DNA of 64,000 bases. Source: Gonapodya sp. JEL0774 (taxonomy: Eukaryota). Positions 3,391-51,790 of the stretch are shown here, in pieces; the first letter of the stretch is position 1, and every line of letters starts with the position of its first letter. The position numbers and the translations under genes are program-made. The notes beneath the pieces are model-generated. The model worked only from the letters and a program-made list of their open reading frames with translations. It searched no databases and was not told the origin of the DNA. The stretch lies in contig JADIIX010000033.1 of the NCBI GenBank assembly GCA_027604505.1, positions 62,001 through 126,000 of the forward strand. Reading direction: 5' to 3'.

Positions 3391-5852
3391 ATGAGCTCTG
3401 CAACGTTTCCCCAGATAATCATCGAGATCAACCTCCCCCAGATGGGGGCTGCAATCGTTCCAGCCGCTCATGAAGTGCGTGCTTCACCTTCGGCACCGAC
3501 CGAGTCCACATCTCCATCCCAGCCAGAGCAGCAATCGGATGGCGACGACTTCCCCATACCAGTTTGTGTAAAGGACCTTGCCCCCATCGCTAAAAAGAAG
3601 ATATCCAGCTCTGCGTGGGCTTATTATTCCACGGGCGCCAGTACGTTGAACCAAGGGGGATGGATGTCATCGGGAACTTCGTGAGGGGGAGGAAGCTGGG
3701 AAGCAAAAAGATCGCGAAGACCACATAAAGGAGACTGGTGGAGATGAAATAAGCGGATTCAGGGGTTGGTCTGGCTGCCTGGGTCTGGCCTTCTTTGGAG
3801 GTGCGATAACGGTTATCGCAACATCTCGTGACTCGTTATCGAACCTTCGCAGTCTATAAGTCGTATTTTTTGTCGACTATTGCGTCAAATATTGACTAGC
3901 TTTCACCGCTTCTACCGCCGCTTGTCTCATCTCACTTCGTACCCTCTGGTCAATAACAGTGGACGAAGAGACCATGAACAACAATGTCGAGTCATTCAGT
4001 CGCATTAGGATTAGGCCTAGAGTGCTCCGTGATGTGTCGAGCATAGATACTACTGTGAGACTCTCTTTCAGTGCTCTGTTTGATGTGTTTGATGCCCCTT
4101 AATCGATATCTCGATGTGCGCGATATCCAATCCAGGTCAAGCTTTTCGGGCACACCTACGCATCTCCTATCGGTATTTCTCCCACTGCCATGATGAAGGT
4201 ATTATACCCCCGTCTTTCCCTTTCAATCACCGCATTCCTCTATACTCACCTCTTCCTTGTCCCACCACCATAAACTCAAGCTTTGCCACCCCGACGGCGA
4301 ATCCGGCGTCGCTCGTGCCTGCGCATACCTGAACCAATCGCAAACTCTCTCGACATTCACCACCACGTCGCTCGAAGATGTCGCACAAGCAGTGAGAGAT
4401 ATGCCAGGGTACCCGTACGCCAAGGCGGCGAGGCTGCCCAACCTGTGGTTCCAGTTGTATGTGGTGGAAGACAGGGTGAGTAACCGGGAGGACAGGTGCG
4501 GTTGCAAACACCCGTGTCCACCAGCAGTGGTCGGCGCGTTCTGCGAACGTTCCGTCCCCTGGTGGCACGTGTGTCGTGGAAACCGGCTCTGATCCTTCCG
4601 TCCCCATTGAAATATAATCTTGCTCAGTCCAAATCCGCCGAACTTGTCAAACGCGCCGATGCCGCTGGGTACTCGGCCATGGTCGTAACAGTCGACACAC
4701 CGAAGCTAGGAAGGAGATTACATACAATAAGGGAGCCTTTTGAACTACCGGTGGGTTTCTCGGGATGTTGGGACCAGCGTTTGGGTTGCAGTAGAGGTGG
4801 AAGAATAACATTGGTGTATTTGGCATTTGGTGTGGTGCAGAAAAACATGTCGCATGCCAATTTCGATAACTCGGCGAGGTGAGCATGACTCGCATCATTT
4901 GTCGGTATATTCTCGCCTATAATCATCTTCGTTTCACTGTGAACAATCCAATTTTGCTCTGCCGGGCTTTGGTACACCGACGCTAAGTCTCGCCAACATC
5001 AACACGGCAGTAGATGCGTCCGTCAATTGGAAACGGGACATCGGGTGGCTGAGAACGCTTACAAAATTGCCCATCGTGAGTGGTTGGACCCTGTCGGGGT
5101 TCTGGGAATGAGGTCAAGCAAGGATAAGGACCTGACACAACCTGTTTGGAAACAATGAAAGATTGTGAAGGGTGTCCTTACTGCAGAGGACGCAGAATTG
5201 GCCGTGGAGTGAGTAAATCCGGACTGCTCAAAGAATCAAGAGGGACCCTCACATCCTTGTCCTCTTTACAGAGCCGGTGTCGATGCTATCGACGTGTCAA
5301 ACCAGTAAGTTGCATATACTGCAAGTCTGACTTTGTCCACCACACATGTGTTGAATGCGATAAACCTGAAAAAATTTTGTAGTGGCGGCCGGCAATTGGA
5401 TTCGGTCCCCTCATCTTTGGAAGCGCTTCCTGAAATTGCGCGCGCCGTGAAGGGTCGCATCCCCATTATCTTAGGTAAGTCCTGTCCGAATGTGATTACG
5501 ACGCGTCCATGGCGCACTTTCGTTTCTAATATGTATCTTTCGATCAGACGGAGGCGTTCGCAAGGGCACCGACGTTTTCAAGGCGCTCGCATTAGGTGCA
5601 AACTACGTATGTGTGGGGAGACCGTCGTTGTATGCGTTGGCTTATGACGGCGAGGAGGGAGTCAAGACGATGTTGGGGTGAGTGTCTCCTGGTCGCGCAC
5701 AGAAGTTCATAAGTTCAGACACATACTTTGTCTTTTATGGTAGATTCCTCAACGACGAATTGAGACTAGCCATGACACTTGCAGGTACAACTGACATTAA
5801 GTCCATCACAAGAGCGTATGTGAGGGCAGCAGGGGAGTACTCGAAGCTTTAA
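3391..5852 (+). CDS. FMN-dependent alpha-hydroxy acid oxidase (glycolate oxidase-like), peroxisomal, copy A
   Basis: Multi-exon; [62 protein letters not shown]; ends EYSKL* (PTS1). Confidence 0.92.
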
Positions 5853-5974
5853 GGGAGAGAGATTAAGACTTTATTCGCTTGAAAGACATATGTACGTAGA
5901 TTACCTGCTTATAGAGGCGCAGCTAAAAGTAGTGAATGGTTGGTTCTTGAATTCGGAGAATCCCCATTGCTACT

Positions 5975-7124
5975 ATGCCCGACATTTCCAAATCCAGTGA
6001 TGCACTGCATTTCATCTTCGGATATGGATCGTACGTTCTACCATTTACCTATGCGTGCCATCATGTCAATAATGTATGTCACAACGTCTCCTCTGCCAGG
6101 CTGATATCAGCCACCTCTCGCGCCCTCTCTTCGATCCATCCTGAATCCACCATTGGATCACGAGCGTATCCAGTAAGAGTGCACTCGCTGAAACGCATGT
6201 GGACATGCAGGAATGCGGACACAGGTGACCAATCGGTTGGGGTCACAGAGACGAATCGTTGTGATGGGGAAACCTGCTCGTTTAAAGCACCGACACGTGT
6301 CGCTGGTGGTTCTGTATCAAGTCCTTGTGACTCATCCGTGAATGGAGTTTTGTATCCCCTTGTGGGAGGGGAGGAGGATCTCGCTCTGCTGGATGACAGA
6401 GAACGAAACTACAAACGACTGAGCGTTGACATTGCAGATGTGGAGGAGGTGGAAGCAGAAACCGAAGAGGACTCATATTTTATTCAGCTCCTGAGGAAAC
6501 GGAATCACTCAACCACGACGGGTACCCCAGTCAAGGTTTGGACATACGCAATCCAACGAGAAGACTGGACGTTTCCTGTCGACGGGGGTTTCGGGAACCC
6601 CATACCACAGTCATATGTTGGTGAGCAAACAACATGTGTGCAAAACTGAGTACTTGATGCCGACGTGTGTTCTATGTGTAGACATTATTCTTCTGGGCTG
6701 TCTTCAAATGCACGGGTGCAAGTTTGGTCTCGAATTCGTGTCCTCAACATGGCGATCGACTTACGAAGGACTTGCACAACATATTCTGGTGACTTTGAAT
6801 CGGAGGGTGGAGTGGCACATTCCCACACGATACGGCCACCTGGTGGCACCGCTGCCTCCTCCACTTCGTCTCATCAACGATCGACAATTTGTTCGTGATC
6901 CTCACTCTTCTTATAATGATCGACTTTTTCGCTTGCTGGACTCGATTGTGGACACTGCCCTCGCTCCCTATGGTGGACTTTCCAGAATGAGGGTGCCCGG
7001 GTGTACCCACCTTAGCGCCCCTCACTCCTCCTCTTACGAGGAGTATGTGACATGGAATATGGAAGATCCTTCTCCCTCTGATGTTGGCAAGTGGGAAGAC
7101 CAGCTCAGATTGTTGGATCTCTGA
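5975..7124 (+). CDS. Gamma-glutamylcyclotransferase/ChaC-like fold protein
   Basis: FIFGYGS spliced to LISATSR (FGYGSL motif), VNGVLY, LDDRERNYKR, PIPQSYV/DIILLGC. Confidence 0.7.
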
Positions 7125-7389
7125 TTGAAGGGAAGCGTGCGAACTAACGATAAAAGTCTATGTGGCAACGGTTCGTTGGCTCCGTCGGTACGTAGACTGC
7201 TCACAGTCCCCAGCATTGGCTTGCCACTCCGCGTATGTGAAGGCAGATTCTCTGCACAGTAGATGGGATGGCTGATTCGACAGTGATTGTTATTACTCGT
7301 ATGATGTACGACATCCCCAACCAACAACAGTTATAGTTCGTTTTAAAACATCTAGGAATCTCTATTACCCACTAGTGTGACAGATCCAT

Positions 7390-8567
7390 CTATTTCTCTA
7401 CTTCTGTGTCAAGATCCCTGCTCCTCTCCCGGAAGTACATGAACTTCCACCCTATGGGAATGAGCACTGTAGCAATAACAATCTTAACGGCATCACCTGT
7501 TCCATTGTGGAAAGGGAAAAGAAACAGCGGAAGCAATGAACATGCGAGTCTTAGCCTCATATATAGCACTCTCGCGAGTGAGAACGTACCCGGCAGGAAA
7601 GGGAGAACGCCTTTCGTGAAAGCAACGTTGGCGCTGTTTAGCTTGACGCCAAGCCATATCCCTCCAATGAGGTAGATAATAATATTTCCAAGAATCATCG
7701 TTGCAGCTGTGGTAATGAACCGCTTGTCGGCGCCGAATCGGCGGGAAAGCGAGCCCACGACACACCCAGCGATTGGGAAGGAAATCAAGAACCCGCATGT
7801 GGGGCCAGAAAATGTTGTCCAGCCGGATTTCTGTGCTGTAAAATGGGCAAAAGCAGGTTCGAGACAAGGCAGAACAGATGTATGGAAGAGGTGGAGAACA
7901 AGTGACTCACCAGCAAAGAATGGTGCGCCAGCGATACCAACCAGGTCATAAAAGAATGGAATGGCGAATCCCCAGATTGGACCCGCAAGGGAGCCAATGA
8001 ACAAAACGGCGAACGTCTGCATAGTTACGGGCACTGTTTTGTCGGTGTCCCAAGGCAGGTAGAAGGACATTTGTGCACACGCTGCGAGGAATAGAACCGA
8101 AATGATGCCAAGAAGCAATGGAACCGTATATTTGGCGTAAGGAACACGGTCGAGAACTTGACCGAGTACGGAAAAGTATGTAGGTTGGCTGATCCGCAGG
8201 TTTGATTTGAAATTCGAGAAAGAAATATCATTCATTGAACTTCACGAAGCAAGACTCACCGCTTGAGACGCATTCGCACAGCATCTCCTTCGGGGTTGAG
8301 CTCGGCATCGTCCGGAAGAGGTTGTCCATCCGATCCCAAGAGGCTGGCATTGTTAGGGTCTTCCACAAGTTCTGGAAAACACGACCACACGATCGTTATC
8401 AGGACGATTGGGGCGATACTTGAATGATTCTCACCTCGGTAGTTGGAAAAGATTCGATGGCGAAGCGACTGGACTGTGACCTTTCCTGACACAGCGAACG
8501 ACACAGGTTTTGATTTGAATTGGGGGAGGACTCGGATCCGACGGGTTCCAAGAAGTTCCAGCGACAT
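7390..8567 (-). CDS. bioY: BioY-family biotin transporter (ECF S-component type) with an N-terminal ubiquitin-like extension
   Basis: VPVTMQTFAVLFIGSLAGP, GAPFFA, GPTCGFLISFPIAG, GVLPFLPG/DAVKIVIA (DxxK) match BioY motifs; about 4 GT-AG introns. Confidence 0.88.
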
Positions 8568-8906
8568 TGTGATGATTGAATGGATAAGGTTGGTGGTGGG
8601 TCAGACAAGGATTAAATATTGCTGATGTCAAAGAATGGAAGAAGCGGGAAGGACGAATCGTCAGGTCCAGGAGCGTCTGCATTCCGATTCCGATGACGCG
8701 AGAAGGTATGTTCCTCAATAACAGTCCACTGAAATCATTCGCGCGTTACCAAAAAAAAAAAAAAACTGCGCTTCAACTCTCGAATTCATTCATCCATTTG
8801 TTCATTTGCATTGAACTCACCCTTCCCCAGCCTTTGCTCCGTCAACAGCAGCTTTGGATCCACTAAGTCGCTATCGTGCCCCGCCCTCACGTCATCTGCG
8901 TTCACC

Positions 8907-11301
8907 ATGACAAGAGTACAATTCACAGCAACAACCCTTCTAATTCACGTGAATGGCGTAATGTTATAATGACGCCATGTCATCTATTGCTTAATCTCTG
9001 AACGATACCTAAGTTTGGCAACAATTGTCACACGTATTTAATTGTACCCGGAACGTGCTGTGGAATCGTTGCGAGTTCGAGGAATTGCCCAATCCATGAA
9101 TAGTCTTCAACATTCTGTCGATCTTGGATGTGTACCGACCGTGCCGTGGCACTTCCCGTATCGCGCTCCACTCATGTAATACTTTGAAGAAACCACTATT
9201 GATTATGGTGATGTCTCTCCAGCAGCTCATCGAGCGGGAAGATCCCGGAAAGCGAATAATGATGTTCAAGGCGCTCTTTTTGGAACTGGATGTTTCAGGG
9301 TACGCATGCAATCCCGAATGCATCAAAAGTATGGTCGATCCGATCCCTCACCATCCATAACAGTGAAGGATATCTGGACAAGGATGAACTTCACAACTAC
9401 TTGGAGCGATTAAACTCGAAAGCCAGCAACCAACGACTTTCTCCGCATCTGGATAAGGTGTTGCGAAATGAGGTTGGTTGGACTCAAGTTATTTTGCATT
9501 ACCTCTTCCAATCACACTCCAACTTTGAACTTTGCCAGAAGCAAATTGCGTACCTAGCTCTGGAGCTTGCAAAGGCGATGGACACATCAGGAGACGGCAA
9601 GGTCACGTTCGACGAGTTCGAAGCGTTCGCCCTCCGAAAAGAACAGGAGCTGTATCAGATATTTGCGGATGCGGACGCCAATGGTGATGGATCTCTTAGC
9701 AAGGATGAAGTTTTCGTGGCCCTACATAAAGCAGGTGAGTGAACATGCAAATCATATCGCATAAGGAGTTCACTTTCGCTCACAATCTCTTTCAGGGTTG
9801 AATATCACAAAGGATGACGTTGACAAGTTCTATCATGTACTAGATCGGGACAGAAATGAAAAGCTAGATTTCTATGAGCTCAGAGGTAGTGTCCCTACTT
9901 GCGCTTTCTGGATATTGTGTTGTCGCTCGACTTACTGAAATGCCAGATGCATTCTTCTTTGACGCCGATGCGCCTGACTTTGGCTCACTGTACACTTTCT
10001 ACCAAAATGTGTACGATCCGACTGTCGTCATCGACGGCTTGCCCACCAACACTCCACCTACAAAGTCAAAAAGTCTGGCGGACCACGCTGGATTCTTCCT
10101 GGCAGGCGGAGTAGCTGGCGCGATATCACGGACTCTGACCGCGCCCATGGACCGGATTCGAACATTTTTCCAAACGTCTGCTCAACAACAGGGCAAGGGA
10201 TTGGGTGGACTTATTCGGGGCATCGCAGATGCAGGGTCAGTAATTTACGAGCAGGAGGGACTCAGAGGACTCTGGAGAGGTGAACCTTTGAAAGGCAATA
10301 GTGTCTGATGTCGAGATACCGACGTCATGACTCACCGCCCCTCCTTTCCTCGATTCTGCCTTCACTCTGTGACAGGCAACGCCATAAACGTCTTCAAGGT
10401 TGTACCTGAAAGCGCACTGACGTTCTGGGCGTTCGAGACTCTCAAAGATTCAATCGCTGCACTGGAGGACCGGAAAGATCCCTCATCGGTCGGGAAGTTC
10501 GTTGCCGGTGGTCTCAGCGGAATGTTCTCAATGGCCGTGGTTTATCCCATCGACACCATCAGAACTCGTCTCATGTGCCTCTCCGCTAACACACATGTGA
10601 AACCGACCGTAGCAACCGCATCGGATCAAGCGATTCCTCTTGGAGTCCCTGTTCACGCTCGCGGTTATGTCACCACAGCGGCCCCGAGAGAAGCGCCGAT
10701 TATCTCCGTCATCAAAGATTTGTGGAGAAGTGGAATTGGAAGCTTCTATCGTGGGGTGCTTATGTTGTTGGACCATATCCATGGGAGCTCCCGGTTGATG
10801 AATATTTGCTTCTGCAGATCGTTCCTGCCACAATCGGGATATTCCCTTATCAAGCAGTTAATCTTTTCACATTCGACTCCTCCAAGCAATTTTTCGTAGA
10901 CAGATTGGCTGCTTCCCAGGGCAAGAAGCATTCCGAAGTTCGACCTAACCCGGGTATTCTCCTGGGGTGCGGCGCCCTCTCTTCCACCGTCGGCTCCCTG
11001 TGTACGTATCCGTTGAACCTCATTAGAATTCGATTGCAGGCGGCGGGCTCGCCAGCACATCCACAGACTTACGACGGGATTGTTGATTGTGTCCGAAAAA
11101 CAGTGGGGAAAGATGGCTTGAAAGGACTTTATCGGGGACAATCGGTCGCTTTGAGTGAGTGCTGCCGTATCAACAATTCGGGTGGGAACGTTTCACATTG
11201 AATGCCAATTCCATGGTGCAATTATAGTGAAATCGATACCTTCCACAGCGTTATCGTATTATGTGTATGAGAGCACCAAAGCTTTCCTTGGCACCAAATG
11301 A
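8907..11301 (+). CDS. SAL1: Ca2+-binding mitochondrial carrier (SCaMC/Sal1-like ATP-Mg/Pi carrier); start exon uncertain
   Basis: EF-hands DTSGDGKVTFDEF and DANGDGSLSKDE; three carrier repeats PMDRIRT, PIDTIRTRL, PLNLIRIRLQ. Confidence 0.88.
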
Positions 11302-49539: not shown

Positions 49540-51790
49540 CTACAACTTTCCATACTCAGATTCGTGTTTGACATAAGCACGAGTAATTGCTTTCACGGTG
49601 GTAGTGCCGGCCAACACACATGCCAATCGCAACTCTTCGTTGAGCATTTCCAACATCTTCCTTACGCCTTCTTCACCCTCCCAGGTCAGGGCATACAGAG
49701 AGGGTCGCCCAACGCACACAAAGCTGTATACAAATTCAGTGATTCAAGAAGAACGTTGGCAGGGACGAAAGAATTGCCATACCAACACCCCCACAGAAAA
49801 CACACCTTGCACCCAGAGCAAGTGCTTTGAATACATCTGTACCTTTTCTTACACCACCATCTGTTTTGATTGAGGGAGTTGTGAACTTAGAGCGCAGTCA
49901 GACGATCAACCAGCAAGCACCATGGTCTCACCAAAAATGATCGGAACCCTCCCTTTCACCACACGTGCGATTTCTGGAAGTGCTTCGAGGGTGGCGGGAA
50001 CTGTGTCGAGCTGCCTTCCACCACTGTTACAATGGAGAGAAGAAATTATGATTTGACTCTGGAGCCACGCCACAGGTCGACACAGTCACGTACTGGTTCG
50101 ATACTCCAATTGCATCAACGCCAGCTCTTAAAGTTTGCGTGGTATGTGAACGTCAGTTTCCCAAAACACCCAGGAATATATATAAGGTGTGCTTCCTTAC
50201 TTTATGGCGAGTTCTGCATCTTCTGCAGTGAGAATGCCCTTGACCACCTGGAGCAAGGGTGTATGAGTATTCCAGCCATTCACGATGTACCAAAATGCCC
50301 TTCGTTGATCTCGTTCTCGTACTTCATACCACTCACAATCGGAAGTTTTGTGATAGACCTGAGCCATCCGATGTCGCGGTCCCAGTTCAAGGATGCGTCG
50401 TTGGAGTTGTTCAAACCCACACCACCGGGTTTTCCCATCGTGGACGTGCTGTTAGCGGTGTTTGTGAAATTGGCGTGTGAGAGGTCCGACTTTGTTCGAA
50501 AAATGAATTCCATTTGTCCCGTGGGGATCTTGTCAGTTCCCGCCTCGATAATGAGAGCACAATCAGTAGCCTTACCGGCATGAAAAACGGCGTGCGAATG
50601 TTGTGAAGTCGTCTACCCAGTCTTGGTGTGTCGACGGTCACCACAAGAGCGGAGAATCCCGCCTTCTCCGCGCGCCGCACGAGTTCCTCCGCTTTGGGTC
50701 TGTCCTCGACCTGAACAATGAATGCAGAGAGAGCGACAGAGGGCCGACCGCGAGGTGTCAGGACACGGATCGCATTCCCAACCGGGAGACGGGTTACACA
50801 CCACGTAAAGCTGAAACCAAAGGTTGGGAATTCGCTCCGCCTTGGCAAAAGGGTAATCGGGAAGGCTTCATCGGAGAATTTGTGGACAGGGTGAAGATCC
50901 TGGGGACGACCTGTTGCTGTTGCAATCGAGCATGACTCACCTCCTGACCGCACTCGCAACGTCCTCCAAAGATATCGTAGTAAATGTGGATAGCGTTTGA
51001 AGCCTGCATGAAGACACAAATGATGCCAACAGATGTCAATGATGACCAATACGAATGGCATGTCAGCGTTCTTCTTCATCTCTGGGGACTACACGCAAAA
51101 GCCCCCACAACACCGTTGCAAGCTCTCACTGATTAAGACTCGCCGCTGCCCTTCCCACCGCGGCTTCACCCTGCGGGTCGCACAACTTCATCATTGCTGT
51201 GGGGGAGATGCCGATTGGGGTGGCGAAAGTGTGGCCGAACAGTTTGACCTAACGGACGCCGAATCCAATATTCCATCGGTGAGGGACGTGGAAAACAATT
51301 AAGTGTTCCAAAGTCGTGGGGGATGTCCAATTTTTTAGGTGGACCAGAAACTCACGCTTGTGTCAATCTGGGAGACATCGCGGAGCACGCGGGGGCGAAT
51401 ACGGACGCGGGTGAACACCTCGGAGTTCAGCTTGAGTGTTTCTTCTTCCACTATCGAAGAGAAACCGGGTGGCGTGAGCGCCAATCAGTTGTGAGGACAA
51501 ACTGTATCTCCCAAAGAACGGTGTTGGAAGTCCCTTCCACACCCACTCGCGCCGGAGGAAAAATAGTCCCATGCCGATGTCTTGTTAAGTCTACTCTTCG
51601 CAACGGCTTCGATATCCTTAAGGCATACCGGCGTTGGAAGTTCTGGGACAGCAGGAGTTTCCTTCGGGTTTGGTTCCGATGTCGAGGAGGAAGACGGTGG
51701 TGCGATCGTGGTGGTCCCGGGCGACGGAGATGTCGATGATGATACTGATCCCGATGGGAAGTTGATTTCAATAATGATGGAGGCAACCAT
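49540..51790 (-). CDS. FMN-dependent alpha-hydroxy acid oxidase, copy B
   Basis: [56 protein letters not shown]; ends EYGKL*. Confidence 0.9.

What the first reader, a model, noticed from the sequence alone, without database searches (positions are those of the whole stretch)
7390..8567. Eukaryotic, intron-containing BioY biotin transporter fused to a ubiquitin-like domain
Seen: the spliced product has all BioY hallmarks (VPVTMQTFAV, GPTCGFL, PFLPGDAVK) and several GT-AG introns, so it is a resident nuclear gene rather than bacterial contamination. The first two exons encode about 80 aa: RRIRVLPQFKSKPVSFAVSGKVTVQSLRHRIFSNYR-ELVEDPNNASLLGSDGQPLPDDAELNPEGDAVRMRLKR. By eye this follows the ubiquitin beta-grasp pattern (TVQSLRHRI~TIENVKAKI, LLGSDGQPLPDDAEL~LIFAGKQLEDGRTL, DAVRMRLKR~STLHLVLRLR) with no di-Gly. 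Known: BioY is the prokaryotic ECF S-component, some solitary BioY proteins work without the ATPase module, and characterised yeast biotin uptake uses MFS Vht1. Inference: a horizontally acquired solitary BioY domesticated with a cytosolic Ubl domain for trafficking, turnover or partner docking, which would be an undescribed eukaryotic biotin uptake or sensing system.
Basis: partly seen in the sequence, partly recalled or inferred. Interest (0 to 1): 0.85.

Follow-up and report, generated by a model that had tools for sequence, protein, structure and literature searches.

The report
Ubiquitin-fused bacterial biotin transporter in eukaryotes
An aquatic fungus (Gonapodya) has an intron-containing gene for a bacterial-type BioY membrane protein joined to a domain predicted to fold like ubiquitin; slime moulds carry the same fusion, and it likely imports vitamin B7 (biotin) without the ATP-driven partner that most bacterial versions use.

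Summary
Five exons (8567-7390, minus strand, four GT-AG introns) give a 291-aa protein identical to NCBI's Gonapodya sp. JEL0774 model KAJ3341075.1. Residues 133-271 are Pfam BioY (E 1.4e-32). The AlphaFold model matches L. lactis BioY 4DVE (target TM 0.78), and residues ~9-82 match ubiquitin-fold proteins (TM about 0.65-0.79, rmsd about 2 A). There is no di-Gly.

The fusion is not peculiar to Gonapodya. I found 11 N-extended BioY proteins: two Gonapodya, Tieghemostelium lacteum, a Ceratiomyxa fruticulosa transcript and seven environmental records. They form one clade (99/93) among unfused, bacterial-type BioYs. All 11 keep helix-6 Asp/Lys, and only 1 of 11 has the EcfT-docking AxxxA motif. 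The N-domains are only 14-26% identical between groups.

Best reading (0.55): a solitary biotin facilitator with an uncleaved cytosolic Ubl that serves folding, topology or sorting. Function, location, donor and the absence of an ECF module are untested.

Prior art: Dictyostelium BioY was listed in 2011 as a transfer candidate of unknown function, and UniRef names the T. lacteum protein Ubl-containing. Ten literature searches showed no description of the fusion or of a fungal member. New variant of a known kind; interest 0.62.

The parts
8435..8567 (-). Exon 1 (ATG at 8567); strands 1-2 and the main helix of the ubiquitin-like domain (aa 1-44)
8372..8434 (-). Intron 1, GT-AG, 63 nt, in frame and stop-free
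8260..8371 (-). Exon 2; second half of the ubiquitin-like domain (aa 45-82), no di-Gly
8189..8259 (-). Intron 2, GT-AG, 71 nt, phase 2, at the Ubl/BioY boundary; retention would stop the protein after 82 aa; holds an in-frame ATG at 8235
7911..8188 (-). Exon 3; shared junction motif (Y/Q)PTY, short helix, TM1 without AxxxA, loop L1 with the invariant VP..QT, TM2-TM3
7836..7910 (-). Intron 3, GT-AG, 75 nt, in frame and stop-free
7590..7835 (-). Exon 4; loop L3, TM4, basic loop L4, TM5 and start of TM6
7497..7589 (-). Intron 4, GT-AG, 93 nt, in frame and stop-free
7390..7496 (-). Exon 5; Asp258 (7494-7492) and Lys261 (7485-7483) in TM6, charged C-tail, stop TAG
8260..8543 (-). Ubiquitin-like beta-grasp domain, aa ~9-82 (spans intron 1)
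7453..8037 (-). Pfam BioY domain PF02632, aa 133-271 (spans introns 3 and 4)

Best explanation
The gene encodes a BioY-family six-helix membrane protein behind a domain predicted to have the ubiquitin fold, and it likely works alone as a biotin facilitator, with the Ubl likely staying attached in the cytosol as a folding, topology and sorting handle. Shown: gene structure, two domains, no di-Gly, helix-6 Asp/Lys, no AxxxA in helix 1, and one eukaryotic clade among unfused BioYs. Inferred steps: (1) N- and C-termini face the cytosol and the pocket faces outside the cell or the endosome/phagosome lumen. (2) Biotin binds in the pocket closed by loops L1 and L3. (3) The loaded protein topples spontaneously, as proposed for solitary S-components (PMC4820897). 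(4) Biotin is released slowly and trapped by biotin-protein ligase, which supplies the driving force in place of EcfA/EcfT. (5) The fast-folding N-terminal Ubl keeps the N-terminus cytosolic during ER insertion and gives the protein a eukaryotic quality-control or sorting handle. It was likely fused once, in front of the old bacterial N-terminus, after a bacterium-to-eukaryote transfer.
For: Pfam BioY E 1.4e-32; top Foldseek hit 4DVE, E 9.6e-8, TMt 0.78. V134, P135, Q139, T140, D258 and K261 are present in 11 of 11 fused proteins; D258/K261 align with the helix-6 Asp/Lys of 4DVE, whose biotin-binding role I recall and could not read. AxxxA occurs in helix 1 in 1 of 11 fused, 17 of 63 near and 39 of 63 distant unfused sequences; PMC11109136 section 10 ties this motif to EcfT binding. 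No CbiQ/EcfT hit among 61 window ORFs or among 47 same-strand ORFs next to 12 bacterial-type relatives. Solitary BioY transport is reported (PMC4049904; PMC11109136). Basic residues cluster in L4 (4 K/R) and the C-tail, which fits the N-in/C-in topology described for FolT. Between groups the N-domain is 14-26% identical against 37-54% for BioY, and the Ile44-equivalent varies (L, S, E, Q, Y). This suggests the fold, not one binding surface, is what is kept. Fused clade support: 99/98, 82, 93 and 99/93 in four trees.
Against: No binding, uptake or localisation data exist. PMC4049904 notes that lone-BioY transport was challenged by work on the purified protein, and PMC11109136 calls the solitary mechanism unclear. 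The host genome could not be searched for an ECF module, biotin synthesis or other biotin transporters. The helix-1 alignment is poor for distant sequences, so the AxxxA counts are rough. 3 of 5 bacterial genomes carrying related BioYs do have EcfT elsewhere. The Arg after the TM4 Gly-Tyr in 4DVE is Leu/Ile here, though also in 60 of 63 near unfused relatives. The Ubl is kept in every eukaryotic member found, which could mean a more active role than a handle. N-domain homology by leave-group-out HMM was clear for only 7 of 11.
Confidence: 0.55

Rival explanations
1. Biotin sensor (transceptor): biotin binding changes the tilt of the S-component, exposing or hiding the Ubl and so changing turnover or signalling, with little net transport.
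For: The S-component fold is used by receptors fused to cytosolic domains, which lack AxxxA, and solitary BioY/BtuM are called candidate intermediates (PMC11109136). The fused proteins have a cytosolic domain and mostly lack AxxxA.
Against: The Ubl has no catalytic output, and its surface is poorly conserved. The membrane part stays 43-51% identical to ordinary unfused BioYs, many of which also lack AxxxA.
Confidence: 0.13
2. The Ubl recruits a eukaryotic unloading factor that replaces EcfT/EcfA, for example an AAA ATPase cofactor or biotin-protein ligase itself, so that release is coupled to a partner.
For: High-affinity S-components need something to break the binding site (PMC4820897). An N-terminal extension is kept in 11 of 11 eukaryotic members. 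A biotin-protein ligase gene lies 30 kb away in the window.
Against: Low N-domain conservation across groups. Several unrelated genes separate BioY and the ligase, and the link was noticed after the fact.
Confidence: 0.1
3. Capture-and-internalise receptor: BioY only binds biotin at the surface, the Ubl acts as a built-in ubiquitin-type sorting signal, and biotin is freed in the vacuole or lysosome.
For: The fold is closest to ubiquitin itself, and the Ile44-equivalent is Leu in Gonapodya and T. lacteum. Ubiquitin as an endocytic signal is established knowledge (recalled).
Against: That position is polar (S, E, Q) in one group of three. A second transporter would still be needed to export biotin from the lumen.
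Confidence: 0.1
4. Gene-model artefact: the Ubl exons and the BioY exons are expressed separately (intron-2 retention stops after 82 aa, and an in-frame ATG at 8235 could start BioY alone).
For: Both sequence features exist. No reads from this organism were seen.
Against: The same fusion and junction motif occur in 11 proteins, including a Trinity ORF and an intronless ORF. G. prolifera is 76% identical in both domains.
Confidence: 0.03

Closest known systems
BioY S-component (PF02632; L. lactis BioY, PDB 4DVE) and solitary bacterial BioY
   Same: Six-helix fold (TMt 0.78), L1 VP..Q and TM6 Asp/Lys motifs, Pfam score far above the cut-off.
   Different: Nuclear, intron-containing gene; extra N-terminal Ubl of 80-100 aa; no AxxxA in helix 1; no ECF partner seen in the window.
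Dictyostelium discoideum BioY gene DDB_G0292424 (and D. purpureum DPU_G0053374)
   Same: Eukaryotic BioY listed as a bacterial transfer candidate of unknown function (PMC3188802 Table 2, passage read). The dictyostelid T. lacteum protein is in my fused clade.
   Different: That passage names only the BioY domain and says these candidates were not recognised in fungal genomes. The D. discoideum protein was not returned by my searches, so whether it has the Ubl is untested.
UniRef A0A151ZB06, Tieghemostelium lacteum DLAC_08040, 'Ubiquitin-like domain-containing protein'
   Same: Same two-domain layout, same clade.
   Different: A database name only; no paper on it was found.
Integral (non-conjugated) Ubl domains: ubiquilin, RAD23; Ubl plus membrane-domain proteins such as the TECR/Tsc13 enoyl reductases
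   Same: N-terminal beta-grasp without di-Gly. Best single-domain profile hit is ubiquilin-1 (E 9e-4); the art-1 reductase gives a weak hit (E 0.59). The TECR layout is recalled.
   Different: Fused to a nutrient-binding S-component; ~20% identity; Ile44 position not conserved across the family.
Characterised eukaryotic biotin transporters (yeast proton symporters, mammalian SMVT)
   Same: Presumed substrate.
   Different: These have 12 helices (PMC4049904); this is a six-helix S-component fold.

Membership tests
BioY (PF02632) | Profile score above the curated cut-off | tested here: met
   113 bits against 25, E 1.4e-32
BioY (PF02632) | Six-helix S-component fold | tested here: met
   AF2 model; 4DVE top hit, TMt 0.78, rmsd 3.6 A over 187 columns
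BioY (PF02632) | Conserved helix-6 Asp and Lys and loop-1 VP..QT | tested here: met
   11 of 11 fused proteins; aligned with 4DVE. Their role in biotin binding is recalled; the source papers were not held.
BioY (PF02632) | Binds or transports biotin | not testable with these tools
   needs an assay
Complete ECF transporter (S + EcfT + EcfA/A') | AxxxA motif in helix 1 for EcfT docking | tested here: not met
   Absent from the window protein; 1 of 11 fused, 17 of 63 near, 39 of 63 distant; motif per PMC11109136 section 10
Complete ECF transporter (S + EcfT + EcfA/A') | EcfT and EcfA genes in the same genome | tested here: inconclusive
   None among 61 window ORFs scanned (in one search only unspliced ORFs of 150 aa or more, plus one shorter); whole genome not held
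Ubiquitin-like (beta-grasp) domain | Beta-grasp fold superposable on ubiquitin | tested here: met
   Window protein TMt about 0.65-0.79, rmsd 1.7-3.3 A, ~75 columns; P0010 model TMt 0.62-0.71; 37 of 38 profile hits at E<=0.05. Based on predicted models.
Ubiquitin-like (beta-grasp) domain | Pfam ubiquitin-family score above the cut-off | tested here: not met
   No hit for P0001 at E<=10; below cut-off for P0117 (E 0.012) and P0126 (E 0.11)
Conjugatable or cleavable ubiquitin-type modifier | Di-Gly at the end of the Ubl | tested here: not met
   No GG near the junction in 11 of 11
Proteasome/UBA-binding Ubl (RAD23/ubiquilin type) | Conserved hydrophobic Ile44-type patch | tested here: inconclusive
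   Leu56 in Gonapodya and Leu in T. lacteum; Tyr in four; Ser, Glu, Gln in three (read from alignment)
Bacterium-to-eukaryote transferred gene | Eukaryotic sequences form a clade nested among bacterial ones with an identifiable donor | tested here: inconclusive
   One clade in four trees, but no supported sister group, a midpoint root, and many unfused rows are unnamed

The most novel reading that the evidence does not exclude
An old eukaryotic family, spread over Amoebozoa, an early-diverging fungus and further unnamed lineages, in which a ubiquitin-like domain functionally replaces the ECF motor. The Ubl recruits a eukaryotic factor (ligase, AAA ATPase cofactor or sorting machinery) that unloads or reads out the biotin-bound S-component. 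This would be the first S-component-based uptake or sensing system wired into ubiquitin-type machinery.
Probability: 0.25. Interest if true: 0.85.

Novelty: new variant of a known kind. Interest (0 to 1): 0.62.

Why it matters
[quoted passage not shown] A eukaryotic BioY clade, one relative of which is in the model amoeba D. discoideum, would let that question be tested in cells and membranes that probably have no ECF module. It would add a third structural class of eukaryotic biotin uptake beside the yeast symporters and SMVT. It would also show how a bacterial membrane protein was fitted to eukaryotic biogenesis by adding a Ubl, and it gives a fungal member to a transfer candidate once thought absent from fungi.

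Tried and rejected
RNA evidence: no RNA holder was listed for 7300-8700; this is no evidence either way. No genome is held for the window, and L081's record is not held, so EcfA/EcfT, VHT1 and biotin-synthesis searches were not possible.

The HMMER search of 1.84 billion representatives was never accepted (queue full on 10 tries), nor were six VIA-align jobs, so the family census is incomplete. even missed P0115 and P0116, which were in its own query, and no search returned the D. discoideum protein. Only lengths 155-545 were searched, so longer fusions are unseen.

ESM Atlas: no usable hit for aa 1-86, and only a bacterial BioY cluster for P0117. Homodimer prediction: no answer. Viral contigs: 3 unfused-looking hits, so no sign of a viral carrier. 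An N-domain HMM run over ORFs of 163 loci found nothing credible, but it also missed L081, so that screen is insensitive; other loci with long upstream open frames were not examined one by one.

Tests of direction within the clade were not decisive: Gonapodya as sister to the rest p-AU 0.514; T. lacteum plus Ceratiomyxa together p-AU 0.292. Bacterial contamination is rejected (introns, neighbours). A cleavable ubiquitin fusion is rejected (no di-Gly). Three look-ups in the scan's earlier findings returned nothing. Two papers on BioY residues were not held, searches gave no residue data, and passages of PMC4861984 and PMC5037267 gave none.

Full report
1. The gene. On the minus strand, exons 8567-8435, 8371-8260, 8188-7911, 7835-7590 and 7496-7390, with GT-AG introns of 63, 71, 75 and 93 nt, give one 291-aa frame. 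It is identical to stored protein P0001, which NCBI names hypothetical protein HDU93_005707 of Gonapodya sp. JEL0774, KAJ3341075.1; Gonapodya belongs to the Monoblepharidomycetes. The neighbours are eukaryotic: an EF-hand mitochondrial carrier on one side, and a weak GGACT hit and an FMN dehydrogenase on the other. Removing introns 3 and 4 makes the protein colinear with bacterial BioYs. Contamination is therefore excluded. No reads from this organism were available, so the intron-2 junction rests on homologues.

2. Two domains. Residues 133-271 match Pfam BioY at 113 bits (cut-off 25). The AF2 model (7-sequence alignment, mean pLDDT 81, pTM 0.76) has strands at 9-14, 22-26, 53-56 and 75-80, a helix at 32-42, a short helix at 86-93, and then the membrane helices. 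Foldseek ranks L. lactis BioY 4DVE first (E 9.6e-8, TMt 0.78), other S-components next, and then many ubiquitin, SUMO and Ubl chains over ~75 columns at TMt about 0.65-0.79 and rmsd 1.7-3.3 A (E 4e-3 to 9e-3). The sequence evidence is weaker. The window protein alone has no Ubl hit in Pfam or PDB. A 10-sequence profile has 38 PDB hits at E<=0.05, of which 37 are Ubl-family and one is 4DVE. Poly-ubiquitin E-values are inflated by repeats; the best single-domain hit is ubiquilin-1, E 9e-4. In the profile alignment L35/R36 and D65 fall on ubiquitin's helix Val-Lys and on the Asp before its last turn. Lys/Arg is kept in 11 of 11 and Asp in 8 of 11, with Asn in 3 (read); the salt-bridge role of this pair is recalled. 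There is no di-Gly in 11 of 11.

3. It is a family. Three protein searches (114, 14 and 51 hits) gave ten proteins of 289-312 aa with an N-terminal extension: P0001, G. prolifera P0002, Tieghemostelium lacteum P0117, Ceratiomyxa fruticulosa P0128 (Trinity ORF), and unnamed P0010, P0115, P0116, P0119, P0126 and P0127 on contigs of 0.9-1.3 kb. A DNA scan added an eleventh, an intronless ORF on L081 (P0170), flanked by a receptor-type nucleotidyl cyclase, an F-box gene and a BTB gene; it was the one fused case I recognised among 163 loci. A second AF2 model (P0010) also shows a ubiquitin-like N-domain (TMt 0.62-0.71). Leave-group-out HMMs scored the N-domain above shuffles for 7 of 11 (at most 1 of 500 shuffles as high). 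The result was marginal for P0170 (8 of 500) and P0010 (20) and not significant for P0115 and P0116 (107, 225). Between groups the N-domains are 14-26% identical and the BioY parts 37-54% (10 proteins). The census is incomplete (see Tried and rejected).

4. Origin. Of 333 sequences with a BioY hit, 327 covered at least 130 profile columns. After dropping the L081 duplicate 326 remained, and 149 after thinning unfused rows at 70% identity. Sixty-nine were used for IQ-TREE: 11 fused, the 44 best-scoring unfused and every seventh of the rest. The 11 fused proteins form one side of a branch in every tree: 99/98 (LG+G4), SH-aLRT 82 (quick mixture), 99/93 (careful mixture) and 93 (FastTree, all 326). 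No unfused row falls inside. No sister group is supported, the root is at the midpoint, and the unfused set came from searches seeded by these proteins, so the donor is unknown. Inside the clade Gonapodya groups with the Ceratiomyxa group (94/91 and 95/81), and T. lacteum lies on the other side. AU tests reject neither Gonapodya as sister to all the rest (p 0.514) nor the two named amoebozoans together (p 0.292). One gain plus one fusion is the simplest reading; old inheritance with many losses and later eukaryote-to-eukaryote transfer cannot be told apart.

5. Signs of how it works. The loop-1 VP..QT residues and helix-6 D258/K261 are present in 11 of 11 and align with 4DVE; their role in binding biotin is recalled. 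The EcfT-docking AxxxA motif (PMC11109136 section 10) is absent from helix 1 here. It is found in 1 of 11 fused, 17 of 63 near and 39 of 63 distant unfused sequences (12 rows of intermediate score not counted; helix-1 alignment poor for distant rows). No EcfT hit lay among 47 same-strand ORFs beside 12 bacterial-type relatives (47 of 120 listed ORFs), but 3 of 5 such genomes have EcfT elsewhere. Basic residues in L4 and the C-tail fit the N-in/C-in topology given for FolT (PMC4820897 passages), so the Ubl would be cytosolic. The same paper proposes that loaded solitary S-components topple spontaneously. PMC4049904 (first third of the text read) reports both the support for and the challenge to transport by lone BioY. 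The Ile44-equivalent varies across the family. I therefore favour a solitary facilitator driven by downstream trapping, with the Ubl as a non-cleaved folding, topology and sorting handle (0.55), over a sensor (0.13), a Ubl-recruited unloading factor (0.10), a capture-and-internalise receptor (0.10) and a gene-model artefact (0.03). All functional steps are inferred.

6. What is in print. Ten full-text searches were run. BioY + Gonapodya gave 0 papers. BioY + chytrid (4), BioY + ubiquitin-like (13, 12 listed) and the four-term transfer search were seen as listings only, and none concerns this protein by title or abstract start. BioY + Dictyostelium led to PMC3188802, whose Table 2 lists BioY DDB_G0292424 as a transfer candidate of unknown function, not recognised in characterised fungal genomes (passages; supplements unreadable, and they may say more). 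It also led to PMC2643946, which lists a 'bioY domain' gene among unconfirmed deleted or diverged loci (passage). PMC11109136 (passages, sections 6 and 10, searchable supplements; one picture PDF not searched) has no occurrence of 'ubiquitin' in its main text or searched supplements and treats S-components as bacterial. UniRef already names P0117 'Ubiquitin-like domain-containing protein'. Most subscription journals are not covered by the library.

7. Verdict. The protein is a BioY-family member with an integral Ubl, not a full ECF system and not a cleavable ubiquitin fusion. Eukaryotic BioY was noted before. The Ubl fusion, its single clade across Amoebozoa and a fungus, and its likely solitary mode did not appear in my searches. 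New variant of a known kind; interest 0.62.

Noticed in passing
window 41307-38593 (-): A spliced biotin-protein ligase gene (BPL_N E 2e-53 and 4e-26; BPL_LplA_LipB E 2.3e-14) lies 30 kb from the BioY gene, with several unrelated genes between.
   Followed up: partly
window 8434-8372, 7910-7836, 7589-7497 (-): Three of the four introns are multiples of 3 and contain no in-frame stop, so retention gives in-frame insertions (312, 316, 322 aa). Not compared with other genes of the window.
   Followed up: partly
window 8259-8189 (-): Intron 2 sits exactly at the Ubl/BioY boundary; retention would give a free 82-aa Ubl, and an in-frame ATG at 8235 could start BioY alone. It could be the trace of the fusion or chance (about 10% for four introns, rough estimate).
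   Followed up: partly
L081 1-6380: A gene-dense eukaryote-type contig with long uninterrupted ORFs: receptor-type nucleotidyl cyclase with a periplasmic-binding domain, F-box gene, fused BioY, BTB gene. It may represent a lineage outside Amoebozoa and Fungi; not determined.
   Followed up: partly
window 9263-11201 (+): An EF-hand mitochondrial carrier gene (calcium-regulated carrier type) is transcribed divergently, about 0.6 kb upstream of the BioY start.
   Followed up: no
window 5309-5644 (+) and 50414-51088 (-): Two FMN-dependent dehydrogenase genes in the same window.
   Followed up: no
window 5951-7124 (+): The convergent neighbour has a weak gamma-glutamyl cyclotransferase (GGACT) hit, E 0.011, below cut-off.
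   Followed up: no
L086 1594-2757 and L088 502-1860: In two bacterial-type loci BioY follows an ABC ATPase with a TOBE domain (in L086 also a binding-protein-dependent permease), not an ECF module.
   Followed up: no
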